From positions 1 through 35,469 of IMG/VR virus record IMGVR_UViG_3300032373_000064: a stretch of DNA of 35,469 nucleotides. The stretch is one strand, 5' to 3'. The number at the start of each line of letters is the position of its first letter. Within the stretch, counting starts at the first letter, position 1. The stretch comes from a virus (taxonomy: Duplodnaviria > Caudoviricetes). The translations under genes and the position numbers were made by a program. The notes below the pieces were generated by a model. The model had not been told where the DNA came from. It did no database searches and saw only the letters and a list, made by a program, of their open reading frames with translations. Below are positions 21,963 through 27,209 of the stretch, piece after piece.

Positions 21963-23096
21963 TTATGCTACGTAATGAGTGTAAACCATTGCTGACTGGT
22001 CATAGCTATCAACAACTGTTTTCTTGATACCAAAGATACCTGTCGCAACAGTCTGTACAGTTTCTTCAATCTTATCGTCATCAGAGATAATTTTGAAGCC
22101 TGGCACAGTCTCACCAGAAGCGTCATAACCTTTACCGAATACCAAGCAACCTGCTTCAGCACCTACAAAGAGAGCGCGCTTTGTATTAGCTTGCGTCGCA
22201 GAAGCAGTCACACCCGCTGGGATGTAATGATCTGGAACAGCAACAATACGAGTGTAGCTATAATCGAAGTAATCGCCAATCATCGCAGCTGCATCACTGC
22301 CACCAGCCTCTTTATTGAGGATGATTTGTGGGAACGTGATGTTGCCGTTTGCTTGAGCTTGCTGCTTAAGCTGCTTGAAGCCTGTCATAGGAACATAAAA
22401 TTTGAACTTATAACCTTGGCCGATAAGTGGCTTAAAGTTGTTCACACCTGAACGCTGTGTGAATGCTTCTGTTTCCAGATCATCAACAGCTTGAAGTGTA
22501 AGTGTCGCAGTAGAATCCGCCGCAACATCTGCATCAGATGTATTACCAGTACCTGCATAGAATACACGGTGTGTTGTTGGGGCAGACGCTGCATTCAAAC
22601 CTGTGATTGCTACGAGTGAGCTACCTGTGTAAGTAGTACCATCGAAAGCCAGGCTAGTTGCAGTGTTACCACCAAGCTGGTTGAACATACCGACAATCAT
22701 ACGCTGTGCGAACCAGTCAGAGACTGACGGGTAAAGCGTTTCTTGTAGGTCAAAAGCAGTACGCTGTTGTGAGATAGTTCCCTCAACTTTAGCGTCAACT
22801 GGGTCAGATGAAAGCTTGTCGAGAACAACATCATCATAAGCATATTCAACTTGCTTAGTATTTGGACGCTTTGGAGCATCACCGATAATACCAGTACCAG
22901 TTAAACGCTTAGAGAATGTCATACGTACACGGTCGCCCGCGCTACGAACTAAGTCATCTTTACGTGCCAGAATACCATCAGAAATGGCGTCTGCGATTAA
23001 TGGAACACCCATAATGGTGTCCATGTAGAGTTTTTCGGACCAGAGCTTTGCTGTATAATTGCTGCTGGTACCGGGAGTGCGAACGATATCGCCCAT
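21963..23096 (-). CDS. Major capsid protein (N4 gp56 / DUF4043-like)
   Basis: AKLWSEKL, DL.RSAGDRV, ISQQRTAFDL, RALFVGAEAG, IFGIKKT; start ATG 23096 with GAGAGG SD. Confidence 0.85.
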   Translation of the reverse strand: MGDIVRTPGTSSNYTAKLWSEKLYMDTIMGVPLIADAISDGILARKDDLVRSAGDRVRMTFSKRLTGTGIIGDAPKRPNTKQVEYAYDDVVLDKLSSDPVDAKVEGTISQQRTAFDLQETLYPSVSDWFAQRMIVGMFNQLGGNTATSLAFDGTTYTGSSLVAITGLNAASAPTTHRVFYAGTGNTSDADVAADSTATLTLQAVDDLETEAFTQRSGVNNFKPLIGQGYKFKFYVPMTGFKQLKQQAQANGNITFPQIILNKEAGGSDAAAMIGDYFDYSYTRIVAVPDHYIPAGVTASATQANTKRALFVGAEAGCLVFGKGYDASGETVPGFKIISDDDKIEETVQTVATGIFGIKKTVVDSYDQSAMVYTHYVA

Positions 23097-23130
23097 AATG
23101 TACCTCTCAAGGTTAAATTTAAAATTATAA

Positions 23131-23279
23131 AACCCGCTACGATGAGAATGTGAATGCAATCTATGTCGAAGATTAACCGTAACGCCTTTTAGAGAGTGGG
23201 CTAACACCAGCAAGCAATTGGTTCATATCGAGAGACCACCCGTAAGCTTATATCGAAAGCAACCCGCAACTCGTAACTT
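23131..23279 (-). promoter_or_regulatory. Structured 5' leader of the MCP gene with three box-plus-hairpin repeats
   Basis: Sense-strand units: UUGCGGGUU-GCUU[UCGAUAU]AAGC, UUACGGGU-GGUCUC[UCGAUAU]GAACC, UUACGGUU-AAUCU[UCGACAU]AGAUU. Confidence 0.7.
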
Positions 23280-23286
23280 AGTTAAC

Positions 23287-23315
23287 ACATTACAGGAAAA
23301 GAAACCCCTCTGCAA
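23287..23315 (-). promoter_or_regulatory. Putative promoter of the capsid-tail-lysis operon
   Basis: TTGCAG (23315-23310), 17 bp, TAATGT (23292-23287). Confidence 0.55.
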
Positions 23316-23328
23316 GTGCAAAGGGGTT
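23297..23328 (-). terminator. Intrinsic terminator downstream of the scaffold gene
   Basis: AACCCCTTTGCA-CT-TGCAGAGGGGTT followed by TCTTTT. Confidence 0.75.
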
Positions 23329-23415
23329 AATCTTTCGAGAGGGCTGTAAAGCTCTTATCCAAAACAGCCTACCTAATCCATAACATCCGAAACTAAAGGA
23401 TGTTGTAATAATAAA

Positions 23416-24348
23416 TTACTTCTGAACTTTAGCAAGTAATTTTTTGAACTCGGCCATAGGGACTTGTTGACCGGGCTCCTGCATTTTCTTAAGTAGGTCG
23501 AGCGTGCTAGCGTTGCTCAAGTCATCTACTGCACCTGACTTCACTACCTTCTTTTCAGTAATGGTTTTATTCTTCGCAATAGCTTTAGGGTTCATTCCTT
23601 TCCCCTTATACTTTACAGCCTTGGCACCACTAAAACCTGTCGACTTGGCGAGGTTGTAGATAGTATCGCCGATGTTTGCACCACGCTGGAACGCGTTGAA
23701 CGCCGTGGCCTGTATGAACTTGAACGCATGGGCCTGCGCTTGTTCGGCTGGAATACCATGCAATGCGGCGAGCTCATTAGCCTTCTGCTTTGTAAGGTGC
23801 AGGTACGCATCGCCGAAATCGGTGTATTTAGATGCCGCTTCCGCTTCCGCTGATTGTAAGGCGTTCTGGAAAGCAACTTGCGTTTGAAATTGTTGTTGCT
23901 GTTTCTTAAGGTCTTCTACCTCTTTCGCCTGCTTAGGGTCTAAAGGTTCGTAGTCTTCATCCTCTGTAGAGTCACTTTGTTGCTGTTGCGCTGCTTGCTC
24001 AAGAAACTGGTGAATCTGCATTAACTCTGATTCGACACGCTGGCGCTGCTCTTGCTCATACTTCACCTGCTGGCGAAGATGCTTCATAGACTTTTCCTTT
24101 TCGGGGTCTATTTCCTCTTGCTCTTCTTCGGTTTCTTCAGCGTCGTCTGCCTCAAGTTCTTCTTCCGTTTCTTCCTCATCAACAATAGAATCAACGGCAT
24201 CTTCTGCATCGGCTTCGATCTCCTGTTCTAGTTCAGTAGGCTCTTCGATGTTATCGGCCTCTGTCTCCATCTGGCTAGCAAGTTCGGCAATGCCGCCCGG
24301 CTCCATCAGTTTTTGCTGATAATCACTATCTGCTAAATTCATTTCCAT
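23416..24348 (-). CDS. Scaffolding protein
   Basis: Very acidic N-terminus, coiled coil and basic C-terminus; directly upstream of the MCP. Confidence 0.8.
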   Translation of the reverse strand: MEMNLADSDYQQKLMEPGGIAELASQMETEADNIEEPTELEQEIEADAEDAVDSIVDEEETEEELEADDAEETEEEQEEIDPEKEKSMKHLRQQVKYEQEQRQRVESELMQIHQFLEQAAQQQQSDSTEDEDYEPLDPKQAKEVEDLKKQQQQFQTQVAFQNALQSAEAEAASKYTDFGDAYLHLTKQKANELAALHGIPAEQAQAHAFKFIQATAFNAFQRGANIGDTIYNLAKSTGFSGAKAVKYKGKGMNPKAIAKNKTITEKKVVKSGAVDDLSNASTLDLLKKMQEPGQQVPMAEFKKLLAKVQK

Positions 24349-24609: not shown

Positions 24610-24852
24610 TTACTTAATCCAGTCATACCAGTAGAGCCAGCCGAACATGCGGCAAAAGATGTACACTATTACAGCCAACCAAGGGCAGCCTCGTTGCATA
24701 ATACCAGAGGCCAAGCCACAATCCGCTTGATGTTGCGTTCCTTTGCGCCATACATACAGCTCGTCATGCTGCTCACACAAATCACCAAATCGGCCTTCAA
24801 ACCAATCGCGAAAACCGAATATAGCTGGAACTGTGCAATAGCGCTTAGGCAT
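24610..24852 (-). CDS. Small phospholipase A2-like protein (CxxHDxxY)
   Basis: CEQHDELY...QADCGL...IVYIFCRMFG matches the prokaryotic PLA2/DUF1353-like pattern. Confidence 0.55.
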   Translation of the reverse strand: MPKRYCTVPAIFGFRDWFEGRFGDLCEQHDELYVWRKGTQHQADCGLASGIMQRGCPWLAVIVYIFCRMFGWLYWYDWIK

Positions 24853-25147
24853 CTTTCATCTCACTGCTAATGGCAATGGCATCAAGAGCGCCAGTGGCAC
24901 CCACCTTAGCTGCTTGTGCCGCCATTATTTGCGCCTGCTTCGTGTTCCATGCAATTACGTTGTTCCGCATGAAGTTGCTAATAATACGCGTGCAAAATGT
25001 TAGCTTTGATTCAGGATTATCTATTTCGTTCTTGTTCTCATCTAAGACCTTATCCTTATACCCGTTATTATACGCCATGCCGTCAAGGCCTGCGGTCAGA
25101 TAGGCATCGTCACCTTGAAGAGTAATAACTAATTTTTTATCAGACAT
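24845..25147 (-). CDS. Hypothetical protein (possible fibre-associated chaperone)
   Basis: Follows the tail fibre with overlap; contains NPESK. Confidence 0.55.
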   Translation of the reverse strand: MSDKKLVITLQGDDAYLTAGLDGMAYNNGYKDKVLDENKNEIDNPESKLTFCTRIISNFMRNNVIAWNTKQAQIMAAQAAKVGATGALDAIAISSEMKDA

Positions 25148-27209
25148 ATTCACATTCCCATGTGTAAGTTGAATAGAAATAGCGAGTACTGGTCAGTGTA
25201 CCAACCGGGCGCATATAAATAGAGAGATACCCTCCGTCATTACCGACTGTGTGGTCGAGCGCTATAGTACGTTTGTGAATATCATTCATAGCGCCAGTAA
25301 ACACTGTTCCTCCCCCTGTAGGCGTAAAGAACAAATCATTATGAAGAACTGTCGATGTAAACTCACCGTCGGCATCAAGGCCTGATTCCCAGCCACCTGA
25401 GGTCGTAGGCTCCCGATATATGACGTACATCTCCATATCAGTGACTTGAGTGTTGTTAGCCCTGCCAATCATATTTAAGGCTGTTACTTTCGTACCTGCT
25501 GGAACAAACATCCCTAGGTGCTCCCATTCGATAATAGGAGTTTCTCCCGTTCCGCTATTTTCAACGAATTGATAGTAGCTTGGCCCATACAAGTCATCAC
25601 TATCAGTTGTCCATCTTCTGTCTGTGTAGCAGTACCATCGGCCAGAATTAGGCATTAAAAACTTACTCGCAACATTCACCTGCGCGCCGGATTCAATACC
25701 GTCGAGCTTTACCCCATCGGTCGCAACGTCACGACCGTCTATAGTACCTGTCGTCGTAATATTCCCACTATTATCAACTGAAGCCAGAACCGTTTCTGCA
25801 CTATCCTGAATCTCTAGCAAGTTTTGGCTTTGGCCTGTACCCCCGCGAATAATGAGCTTTTTATCGGTAGGGGTTAAATCTCCATAGATAATGCTGCCGA
25901 TATTAAGCTGATAGTCTACGCCATCTACTAAGGATGCATCAGAACCAATAGCAGTACAGTTATTTACTGTGAGCCCGCCGAATCCTGCCCTGAATCCAAT
26001 ATAGAGATTTTCATTACCCTTATCTAAAGCGCTTCCAGCGAAAGCACCAACCGCAAGATTATCACTACCAAAGACCATGTTAGTGAGGGCGTTACCAATA
26101 GCGATGTTGTTGCCATCAGAGCCGCCATCACCTTTATAAAACTTTAAAGCGTCCGGCCCTATCGCAATATTGTCATCACTCTCCATATTGGCGAATAATG
26201 CCTGCTCCCCTATGGCAATATTATCGGTGCACCCTAAAGCCACAGGAAGACAATCCGTCCCTATAGCAATATTTTTAGCGCCATCGTTCCACACATTACA
26301 GTTGTCGCCAAAAGTTACGTTACCATTACTTGCGATTCGAGCATACCCATTATCCCCAATTCGAATAGAGTCAATACTTGGGTTAGTTCGCTCATAAAAG
26401 AAAATAGTATCGAGATCGCCTATCCATCCAGCTGATGCTTCAATACGAAAGCCATCGGAGAGAACATCAATAGGGAAATTGAAGTATCTTGAACTATTAG
26501 TATCGGCAACCTCAGCCTCATAAACAGATTGAGAGCTAAAATCATTACCCAAGTAGAGGCGAACGAACCCTGCTGTATAAGTGTAAACATTCATACGAAC
26601 AACGATAGTATCGCCGACGGCCATTTCCCGCCCTGTATCAGCAAGGAACTCTGCTTTTAGAAAGTCAGTGTCTAGCTCAGCAACATCTGTAGATACTGTT
26701 GCGGCAGTGCGTTTTAAGCGCCCGCCTGTAATTGCCCAATCACCCCCAGAAGTAAAAGTCCACTGGCCTGAATCTGAGCTAAATAAGTCACGATAGAATA
26801 AATTAATAGCGCCAGAGTCAGGGTCTTGAACGTGCAACTGAGCCGAGGGAGATGGTGCGTTGATACCAATGCGCGCGGAGCCTTCGACTGTGTCGTAAGC
26901 GTATGTTACGCCTGTTGTGCCGCCTAGAGAGCCAGCATCATTGAATTGCAGCTCTGTATCAGAACCGCCGGGAGTTACAGAAGTTAAATACCCAGCGTCG
27001 TTAGTAAGATCGGATATATTGTCACCTGATTGCAAGGCACTGTCTGCTAAAGCAAGGCTCGTTGTGACAGAGCCTTCAAGCATAGCGTTGGTGATGGTTC
27101 CGTCCTCAATAGTGTGATCTTCGTTCCAAGCGTTTTTAGCAATAAGCCCCTTGGCACCTGCATCCGGTGAGGGGGTATTGGTGCTCTGCGTTGTATGTTT
27201 AATCGCCAT
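25140..27209 (-). CDS. Tail fibre / spike-like protein
   Basis: GGSDTELQFNDAG, IGINAPSPSAQLHV, tandem NIAIG..AL beta-roll repeats, DGRDVATDGVKLDGIESGA. Confidence 0.8.
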   Translation of the reverse strand: MAIKHTTQSTNTPSPDAGAKGLIAKNAWNEDHTIEDGTITNAMLEGSVTTSLALADSALQSGDNISDLTNDAGYLTSVTPGGSDTELQFNDAGSLGGTTGVTYAYDTVEGSARIGINAPSPSAQLHVQDPDSGAINLFYRDLFSSDSGQWTFTSGGDWAITGGRLKRTAATVSTDVAELDTDFLKAEFLADTGREMAVGDTIVVRMNVYTYTAGFVRLYLGNDFSSQSVYEAEVADTNSSRYFNFPIDVLSDGFRIEASAGWIGDLDTIFFYERTNPSIDSIRIGDNGYARIASNGNVTFGDNCNVWNDGAKNIAIGTDCLPVALGCTDNIAIGEQALFANMESDDNIAIGPDALKFYKGDGGSDGNNIAIGNALTNMVFGSDNLAVGAFAGSALDKGNENLYIGFRAGFGGLTVNNCTAIGSDASLVDGVDYQLNIGSIIYGDLTPTDKKLIIRGGTGQSQNLLEIQDSAETVLASVDNSGNITTTGTIDGRDVATDGVKLDGIESGAQVNVASKFLMPNSGRWYCYTDRRWTTDSDDLYGPSYYQFVENSGTGETPIIEWEHLGMFVPAGTKVTALNMIGRANNTQVTDMEMYVIYREPTTSGGWESGLDADGEFTSTVLHNDLFFTPTGGGTVFTGAMNDIHKRTIALDHTVGNDGGYLSIYMRPVGTLTSTRYFYSTYTWECEYV

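What the first reader, a model, noticed from the sequence alone, without database searches (positions are those of the whole stretch)
23097..23315. Capsid-operon leader with three box-plus-hairpin units: conserved UCGAYAU loop, stems that vary but still pair
Seen: the scaffold transcript ends at a terminator that overlaps a new promoter (TTGCAG-17-TAATGT), leaving a ~185-nt untranslated leader before the MCP. The leader holds three units of a linear box UURCGG(G)U(U) followed by a hairpin with a 7-nt loop UCGAYAU: GCUU/AAGC (23246-23270), GGUCUC/GAACC with one bulge (23220-23246) and AAUCU/AGAUU (23158-23183). Lone box-like copies occur at 23131-23140 and 23269-23277. Three different stem sequences that all keep pairing around a near-invariant loop point to selection on structure rather than simple duplication. 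Established: box-plus-hairpin is the layout of lambdoid nut sites (boxA/boxB), and promoter-proximal hairpins drive HK022 put antitermination. Inference: this is an RNA element I do not recognise that controls the 13.5-kb late operon, either by antitermination or by translational feedback from the capsid or scaffold protein. The UCGA loops are self-complementary, and the loop could pair with AUAUCG in MCP codons 3-5.
Basis: partly seen in the sequence, partly recalled or inferred. Interest (0 to 1): 0.82.

Follow-up and report, generated by a model that had tools for sequence, protein, structure and literature searches.

The report
Mini-pseudoknot array before phage capsid gene
Three copies of a small hairpin-forming sequence sit in front of this phage's major capsid gene, related phages keep the pairing through matched base changes, and each copy likely folds into a tiny RNA knot that probably helps the phage make large amounts of capsid protein.

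Summary
The three units are real (minus strand, 23158-23269) and conserved. In the closest relatives 19 of 22 loop-anchored copies keep at least 4 of 5 stem pairs (control 11 of 95), and all five stem pairs show double changes. The 'box' reduces to CG, which likely pairs with the loop's CG as a small H-type pseudoknot: the adjacent pair covaries in distant relatives (40 of 59, 20 expected) but not in this clade (2 of 12). The lone boxes, the UCGA self-complementarity and the pairing to capsid codons 3-5 are not conserved. Antitermination is unlikely: no terminator lies downstream, and several distant arrays show no promoter. No Rfam family matches the window. Similar units precede the scaffold genes of Firmicutes siphoviruses (6 of 11 leaders), where Rfam GP20-b, with the same lead-stem-GCGUAAAA layout, scores above threshold in one. 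Best reading: a repeated docking fold that stabilises and loads the capsid mRNA; untested. This scan reported the same kind of leader on other phage DNA many times. New variant of a known, functionally unstudied kind.

The parts
23416..24348 (-). Upstream gene, 310 aa, acidic coiled-coil-like; likely the scaffolding protein (by position and composition)
   Evidence: ORF; no Pfam or PHROG hit; identity inferred from synteny portal ... scaffold - capsid
23295..23328 (-). Intrinsic terminator-like hairpin and U tract ending the scaffold-side transcript
   Evidence: -15.8 kcal/mol; terminators at the same place in L001 and L033
23287..23315 (-). Predicted sigma70-type promoter TTGCAG-17-TAATGT overlapping the terminator; predicted start near 23280
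   Evidence: sequence; weak alone; -10 ends 18-20 nt before the first CG in window, L001 and L033
23246..23269 (-). Unit 1: lead with CG (23266-23265), stem GCUU/AAGC, loop UCGAUAU; predicted mini-pseudoknot
23220..23245 (-). Unit 2: lead with CG (23242-23241), bulged stem, loop UCGAUAU; directly head-to-tail with unit 1
23158..23182 (-). Unit 3: lead with CG (23179-23178), stem AAUCU/AGAUU, loop UCGACAU
23109..23157 (-). A+U-rich, weakly structured spacer with UUAA words between the array and the ribosome-binding site
   Evidence: 70-82% A+U and 1-4 UUAA in window, L001, L033, L038; no significant fold (z -0.7 to -1.4 and +0.1)
23103..23108 (-). Shine-Dalgarno-like GAGAGG
   Evidence: sequence
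21963..23096 (-). Major capsid protein, 377 aa (PF13252 Phage_capsid_3, phrog_334); first gene of a ~13.4-kb run of same-strand late genes

Best explanation
Three CG-stem-loop units with covarying stems lie in the predicted 5' leader of the major capsid gene; each likely folds into a small H-type pseudoknot (lead CG paired with loop CG), and the array likely acts as a docking and shielding platform that would raise capsid output by capturing the 30S subunit (through S1 where present) and slowing 5'-dependent decay. Shown: the units, their conservation, stem covariation on the coding strand, their restriction to this one leader, and third-pair covariation in distant relatives. Inferred: transcription from the predicted promoter, the knot in this clade (two invariant C-G pairs plus a G.U, G.A or A.A third position), A-minor support from the A-rich loop, the binding partner, and the direction of the effect. 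Because each unit is marginally stable, a bound host factor is probably needed; the A+U-rich spacer would hand the ribosome to the start site.
For: Stems: 19 of 22 near-clade loop occurrences have at least 4 of 5 pairs and 21 of 22 have CG 8-11 nt upstream (the 22nd is cut by a contig end); control 11 and 24 of 95. 123 of 160 cells pair, shuffled maximum 98; G-U 13 against A-C 2 on the coding strand. All five stem pairs show double changes in both register groups, and 0 of 500 shuffles reach the paired fraction. Third pair is Watson-Crick in 40 of 59 distant units (20.1 expected, 0 of 10000), 20 of 35 with one unit per leader (12.0 expected, 23 of 10000), and 17 of 65 in coding controls (17.2 expected); same-unit 17 of 30 against cross-unit 13 of 50. 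In Firmicutes scaffold leaders the first pair itself varies C-G, U.G, U-A. A covariance model hits only the capsid leader in the window (E<0.02), and all 10 hits with E<0.2 in 51 loci are capsid-leader units. Related units stand before head-gene blocks whose proteins differ strongly, which fits a host-level or intrinsic role. In relatives at 33% or more the SD region is often locked in a hairpin (17 of 24 with z<=-2; next-gene control 3 of 22), the setting in which a 5' pseudoknot serves S1-dependent standby in tisB (PMC7708055, abstract and passages). Pseudoknots impede RNase E scanning (PMC9943677, abstract and passages).
Against: No RNA data. In the window's own clade the third pair does not covary (2 of 12 Watson-Crick, 2.3 expected; 9 of 11 unpaired), so its knot rests on two invariant pairs that cannot show covariation. 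Hairpins are marginal and the leader MFE omits U1 and U2. The locked-SD hairpin is absent from the window and its three closest lineages and is not significant in the <33% group (p=0.07). In PMC9943677 an 8-bp knot was the weakest tested and an 11-bp knot only a modest obstacle; these units would have 7-8 bp each. The units also occur in phages of Bacillus, Listeria and Lactobacillus, whose S1 is short and reportedly dispensable (recalled). 24 of 59 leaders had no unit under the descriptor, so the element is not obligatory.
Confidence: 0.45

Rival explanations
1. Translational operator: the repeated fold is bound by a phage protein (unassembled capsid protein, scaffold or another late protein) that feeds back on capsid synthesis, as gp32 does on the T4 gene 32 leader.
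For: Layout matches T4 gene 32: a pseudoknot about 67 nt upstream, then an A+U-rich tract with UUAA(A) words (PMC3014915 passages); here the last unit ends about 50-61 nt upstream, followed by a 70-82% A+U tract. Tandem copies suit an oligomeric binder. Six Bcep22-like phages carry a different conserved hairpin in the same leader (6 of 59); in four of them a CsrA-like or similar small gene sits just upstream (annotated; unnamed), so this leader is a plausible control point.
Against: A similar unit, once with the same ACGAUA loop (Bacillus phage PBC1), precedes scaffold genes of Firmicutes siphoviruses with different head proteins. In this family the scaffold gene lies upstream of the array, so the scaffold cannot be autoregulating. 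No candidate RNA-binding protein was identified in the window.
Confidence: 0.25
2. RNA antiterminator for the late operon (nut-like with an N-type protein, or put-like acting alone on RNA polymerase).
For: In the window, L001 and L033 the array starts 18-20 nt after a predicted -10 element. Promoter-like scores of 7.5 or more occur in 29 of 56 leaders against 32 of 166 coding windows. The operon is about 13.4 kb long, so Rho-dependent termination could matter.
Against: No terminator-like site on the minus strand from 23304 to 5073 (the scan found 14, 13.6 expected). Only 3 of 56 loci have a terminator within 300 nt after the capsid stop (two loci lack that DNA; one of the three, L230, carries a unit). 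Arrays in L182, L205, L042, L188, L179 and L191 have no promoter-like match above background (weak, as such promoters may be non-consensus). The box is not boxA-like (consensus recalled). No N- or Q-type antiterminator among 44 and 30 ORFs scanned (genome about 85% complete, small ORFs unassigned).
Confidence: 0.1
3. Structural rival: in this clade the units are plain hairpins; the lead CG is a single-stranded recognition box, or neighbouring loops kiss through CG-CG as in guanidine-II riboswitches.
For: No third-pair covariation in the near clade; a 2-bp helix is weak; 17 of 22 loops start with ACGA, as guanidine-II loops do (recalled).
Against: Fixed 8-11-nt spacing of lead CG to loop CG in 21 of 22 units; same-unit pairing beats cross-unit pairing in distant arrays; all 5 UCG loops have G after the lead CG (G.U); no mini-ykkC match; loops are 7-8 nt, not tetraloops.
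Confidence: 0.15
4. DNA-level element: repeated operator sites, or single-stranded DNA hairpins near the late promoter.
For: The CG dinucleotides are about one helical turn apart, and the array lies next to a promoter.
Against: Arm sequences vary freely while pairing is kept; wobble pairs are G-U on the coding strand (13 against 2 A-C); descriptor hits are 91 on the coding strand against 44 on the reverse strand.
Confidence: 0.04

Closest known systems
GP20-b RNA motif (Rfam RF03003; candidate cis-regulatory motif, function unknown)
   Same: Consensus seen: a short UC(a)GC lead, a 5-bp stem and a GGCGUAAAAG loop, then a second hairpin, just before a phage head-assembly gene. That is the lead-stem-CG-loop layout of these units, and units of this type were found in 6 of 11 GP20-type scaffold leaders.
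   Different: The window has no hit to RF03003 or RF02991. Loop is WCGAYAH, not GGCGUAAAAG; three like units instead of two unlike hairpins; placed between scaffold and capsid genes of a podovirus-like phage, not before a Firmicutes scaffold; Rfam's model has no pseudoknot. Homology or convergence is not settled.
T4/T2 gene 32 translational operator
   Same: 5' leader pseudoknot some 60-70 nt before the AUG, followed by an A+U-rich tract with UUAA words; the gene 32 transcripts are the most stable T4 mRNAs (PMC3014915 passages).
   Different: [quoted passage not shown]
tisB 5' pseudoknot standby element (PMC7708055)
   Same: 5' H-type pseudoknot far upstream of the start; many relatives of this phage have a sequestered SD.
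   Different: Single knot in a toxin mRNA under antisense control; SD sequestration is not significant in the window's own clade.
Lambdoid nut site and HK022 put RNA
   Same: Promoter-proximal RNA with a linear part and hairpins (PMC8632103 passages).
   Different: No boxA-like sequence, GNRA-type loop or N protein found; three repeats; late, not early, genes; no downstream intrinsic terminator.
Candidate RNAs DNAVirus_3698 and DNAVirus_865 of Fremin et al. 2023 (PMC10690425)
   Same: Listed upstream of capsid_maj_N4 genes (37 and 4 cases).
   Different: Their sequences lie in supplements that could not be read, so overlap is untested. None of six contig ids from my loci occurs in the searchable tables, and the window's capsid has no NCBIfam hit.

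Membership tests
GP20-b (RF03003) | Covariance-model score at or above 36.2 bits | tested here: not met
   positive control L239 scores 40.3 bits
GP20-b (RF03003) | Directly upstream of a GP20 scaffold gene | tested here: not met
   downstream gene is PF13252 capsid
GP20-b (RF03003) | Short lead, 5-bp stem, loop with CG followed by A-rich bases | tested here: met
   consensus against units; loop sequence differs
Small H-type pseudoknot | Stem 2 (hairpin stem) with compensatory changes | tested here: met
Small H-type pseudoknot | Stem 1 (lead with loop) with compensatory changes | tested here: inconclusive
   met in distant relatives (40 of 59) and Firmicutes leaders, not in the near clade (2 of 12; two pairs invariant)
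Lambdoid nut site | boxA sequence bound by NusB-NusE | tested here: not met
   only CG of the box is conserved; boxA consensus recalled
Lambdoid nut site | boxB hairpin with GNRA-like loop bound by an N protein | tested here: not met
   7-8-nt WCGAYAH loops; no N or Q hit (not all small ORFs scanned; genome about 85% complete)
HK022 put RNA | Promoter-proximal position | tested here: inconclusive
   met by prediction in window, L001, L033; no promoter-like match for several distant arrays
HK022 put RNA | Read-through of terminators by binding RNA polymerase | not testable with these tools
   no downstream intrinsic terminator found
T4 gene 32-type operator | Leader pseudoknot plus A+U-rich tract to the ribosome-binding site | tested here: inconclusive
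   A+U tract met; knot inferred
T4 gene 32-type operator | Binding and repression by the gene's own product | not testable with these tools
   needs binding and reporter assays
Guanidine-II riboswitch (mini-ykkC) | Two hairpins with ACGR tetraloops upstream of guanidine-related genes; Rfam score | tested here: not met
   no Rfam hit; loops 7-8 nt; capsid gene downstream; features recalled

The most novel reading that the evidence does not exclude
One minimal CG-knot module is used by tailed phages of different morphotypes and host phyla (N4-gp56-like podoviruses, SPP1/A118-like siphoviruses) to mark the start of the head-gene block and is read by one conserved factor. GP20-b would be one knot-less model of it, and this clade, with only two Watson-Crick pairs in stem 1, would show its irreducible core: a general, undescribed RNA control of capsid stoichiometry, testable in SPP1.
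Probability: 0.3. Interest if true: 0.8.

Novelty: new variant of a known kind. Interest (0 to 1): 0.52.

Why it matters
How tailed phages make hundreds of capsid subunits per dozen portal subunits from one gene cluster is mostly unexplained outside a few model phages. A repeated 25-nt RNA module at the head of the capsid block, shared in layout between this uncultured podovirus family and culturable phages such as SPP1, PBC1 and Paracoccus phage KLEP18-1, gives a direct handle: small, mutable pair by pair, and testable in laboratory hosts. It also gives a structural reading (a missed pseudoknot) for GP20-b, which only 1 paper in the library names and for which I found no functional study.

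Tried and rejected
Single-protein scan of viral contigs found no relative; two broader alignments were too diverse to search with. A three-loop DNA pattern gave 28 stretches; only 2 were non-repeat arrays with stems before a gene, both capsid genes of this family, one already held. A window-specific two-loop pattern gave 89 stretches (80 fetched with flanks), none an array. A fixed CG-N9-CG anchor without stems was diluted by variable spacing, and CG-CG spacing showed no peak in GC-rich leaders. Extension of stem 1 on the outer side: not above chance (13 of 59, 13.0 expected). Lone boxes, UCGA kissing and loop-codon pairing were rejected as not conserved. Rfam: nothing at gathering score in the window or 20 related loci; the 9 weak E-value hits are not over the units except one 12.8-bit opposite-strand hit. 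Sequencing runs: no RNA holder listed; one DNA run, possibly the source, covers the stretch in one piece without differences, and the other laid nothing. The covariance model built from near-clade units does not reach distant or Firmicutes-type units (Firmicutes loci were not searched with it). The scaffold's XopZ hit (E 0.004, far under cut-off) is noise. Paper searches: 10 found no description of this capsid-leader unit. The supplement of Weinberg 2017 (PMC5737381) and the alignment files of Fremin 2023 could not be read and may hold it. No fold or complex prediction was run.

Full report
Context. The window is a 35.5-kb phage record, about 85% complete, with terminase, P22-like portal, a scaffold-like gene (23416-24348) and a PF13252/phrog_334 capsid gene (ATG 23096) on the minus strand. 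The finding lies in the 319-nt gap between scaffold and capsid genes.

Observation. A post hoc descriptor finds three units in the 184-nt leader; 0 of 5000 leader shuffles gave two, and 0 of 200 window shuffles gave three within 150 nt. Against: each hairpin is marginal (-2.5 to -3.5 kcal/mol), the leader folds no better than shuffles (z +0.94), and the promoter is no better than coding background. One DNA run, possibly the source, covers the stretch without differences; no RNA holder is listed.

Relatives. Capsid homologues gave 31 + 6 + 4 + 61 loci, plus 14 annotated phage regions. After dropping 4 loci without a clear start and clustering at 85%, 57 representatives remained; with the window and L052 added back, 56-59 leaders entered the tests. 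In the eight closest loci (48% or more capsid identity, six lineages) I anchored on the loop sequence alone: 22 distinct occurrences, 19 with at least 4 of 5 stem pairs and 21 with CG 8-11 nt upstream, against 11 and 24 of 95 occurrences elsewhere in the loci. Over all 32 occurrences in 15 loci, 123 of 160 cells pair (shuffled mean 79.6, maximum 98; the better of two registers was chosen, which inflates this a little), with 13 G-U against 2 A-C. The 10 occurrences in loci at 37-42% mostly fit poorly (2 with 4 or more pairs). In two gap-free alignments (11 and 7 units) all five stem pairs show changes on both sides, and slid registers fall to 16-48% paired. Units within one array and related loci are not independent, so these are not probabilities.

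What the box is. Only CG of the box is invariant; the lone boxes are not kept. The lead CG can pair with the loop CG. If so, the base after the lead CG should pair with the base before the loop CG. With a descriptor blind to that pair, it is Watson-Crick in 40 of 59 units from leaders under 45% identity (C-G 22, U-A 10, G-C 7, A-U 1; 20.1 expected; 0 of 10000 permutations), in 20 of 35 when one unit per leader is used (12.0 expected), and in 17 of 65 coding controls (17.2 expected). Same-unit pairing (17 of 30) exceeds cross-unit pairing (13 of 50); a fourth pair is also enriched (27 of 59, 17.0 expected). In the near clade this test fails: 2 of 12 (G.A 4, G.U 3, A.A 3, U-A 2). So the knot is supported for the family and only inferred for the window, where stem 1 would be two C-G pairs and a G.U. 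The geometry (stem 1 of 2-3 bp, loop 1 of 2-3 nt, stem 2 of 4-5 bp, A-rich loop 3 of 4 nt) fits an H-type knot (established knowledge).

Where it occurs. A model built from 11 near units hits only the capsid leader in the window (two hits with E<0.02; unit 1 is not properly recovered) and only capsid leaders among hits with E<0.2 in 51 loci. Under the stricter descriptor 35 of 59 leaders have a unit and 23 have two or more (1.2 per 190 nt against 0.28 in coding DNA); under the looser one 91 units against 44 (reverse strand), 41 (coding) and 35.5 (shuffles). Window, L001 and L033 have a terminator, then a 17-bp promoter whose -10 ends 18-20 nt before the first CG; several GC-rich arrays show no promoter-like match. 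Downstream there is no terminator-like site for the whole late run, and 3 of 56 loci have one after the capsid gene. A locked SD hairpin is common in relatives at 33% or more (17 of 24 with z<=-2; next-gene control 3 of 22) but absent in the window, L001, L033 and L038, which have an A+U-rich spacer.

Beyond this family. To see what the Rfam GP20 motifs look like I fetched 11 Firmicutes phage scaffold leaders (chosen by hand, not sampled at random). A relaxed descriptor, written after I had seen these leaders, finds 9 units in 6 of 11 (1.4 units and 1.2 leaders expected), with the first pair varying C-G, U.G, U-A; PBC1 has the same ACGAUA loop as L002. GP20-b scores 40.3 bits on one of them, and its consensus has the same lead-stem-CG-loop layout without the knot. 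The window matches neither GP20 family nor any Rfam family.

Mechanism. What is common to these cases is the start of the highly expressed head block, not a promoter, a terminator or a particular protein. I therefore favour a cis-acting docking and shielding platform (0.45). Precedents: S1 binds H-type knots and needs one for standby translation of tisB (PMC7708055; abstract and passages), and knots impede RNase E scanning in proportion to their coaxial pairs (PMC9943677; abstract and passages). The second paper also limits the idea, since 8-bp knots were the weakest; stacking of units 1 and 2 or a bound factor would be needed. A T4 gene 32-like operator (PMC3014915; passages) is the main rival (0.25); nut/put antitermination (PMC8632103; passages) is unlikely (0.10). 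The plain-hairpin rival (0.15) concerns structure and overlaps the others. No functional step is shown.

Known and new. Closest catalogued family: GP20-b; the score and gene-context tests fail, the layout test passes. Ten searches found no paper on this unit. I saw Fremin 2023 as passages, one section and table rows, and Weinberg 2017 as passages only; their unread supplements may contain it, and two Fremin candidates lie before N4-type capsid genes. This scan has reported tandem pseudoknot leaders before capsid or scaffold genes on many other phages, one with ACGACA(C) loops that is probably the same family and three naming GP20-b; none lies on this genome or a look-alike. My pseudoknot reading was noted before the first look-up and the GP20-b link; these notes are not independent evidence. 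Verdict: real, conserved, a new variant of a known but unstudied kind; interest 0.52.

Noticed in passing
L045, L046, L047, L231, L232, L234, 39-55 nt before the capsid ATG: Bcep22-, GP4-, LASTA-, PBC5- and Skulduggery-like phages carry a conserved small hairpin RCGC-(A/U)NGA(Y)-GUGY in the capsid leader (6 of 59 leaders) instead of a clear array. In GP4, LASTA and Bcep22 a CsrA-like gene is annotated just upstream. It may be a phage CsrA operator on the capsid mRNA (AGGA-type loop; Csr consensus recalled).
   Followed up: partly
L003, L005-L008, L014, L025-L027, L052, L166-L168, L174, last 70 nt before the capsid ATG: A long hairpin locks the SD region of the capsid gene (z -3 to -8). Its 5' arm (CUCGU...) resembles a unit loop, and in L044 and L166-L168 the last unit overlaps the arm, so knot and SD hairpin may be mutually exclusive.
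   Followed up: partly
L033:2226-2253: A fourth unit-like element lies between the scaffold stop and the terminator, on the upstream transcript.
   Followed up: no
L237 (A118), L240 (SPP1), L238 (PBC1), L236 (LL-H), L243-L245, before the scaffold ATG: One or two lead-stem-CG-loop units with 3-5-bp stem 1 precede scaffold genes of well-studied Firmicutes phages; 9 hits against 1.4 expected; SPP1's unit was found only by the other descriptor.
   Followed up: partly
window 23187-23219 (minus strand): The spacer between units 2 and 3 is similar in L001 (UGCUGG...CCAC), and L038 has a degenerate unit there; it may be a decayed fourth unit.
   Followed up: no
window 23329-23415 (minus strand): The scaffold 3' region holds two further inverted repeats before the terminator (AACAUCC/GGAUGUU and GGCUGU/ACAGCC).
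   Followed up: no
window 24845-27209 (minus strand): A 689-aa tail-fibre-like ORF and three short ORFs sit between portal and scaffold, an unusual place; no Pfam hits.
   Followed up: no
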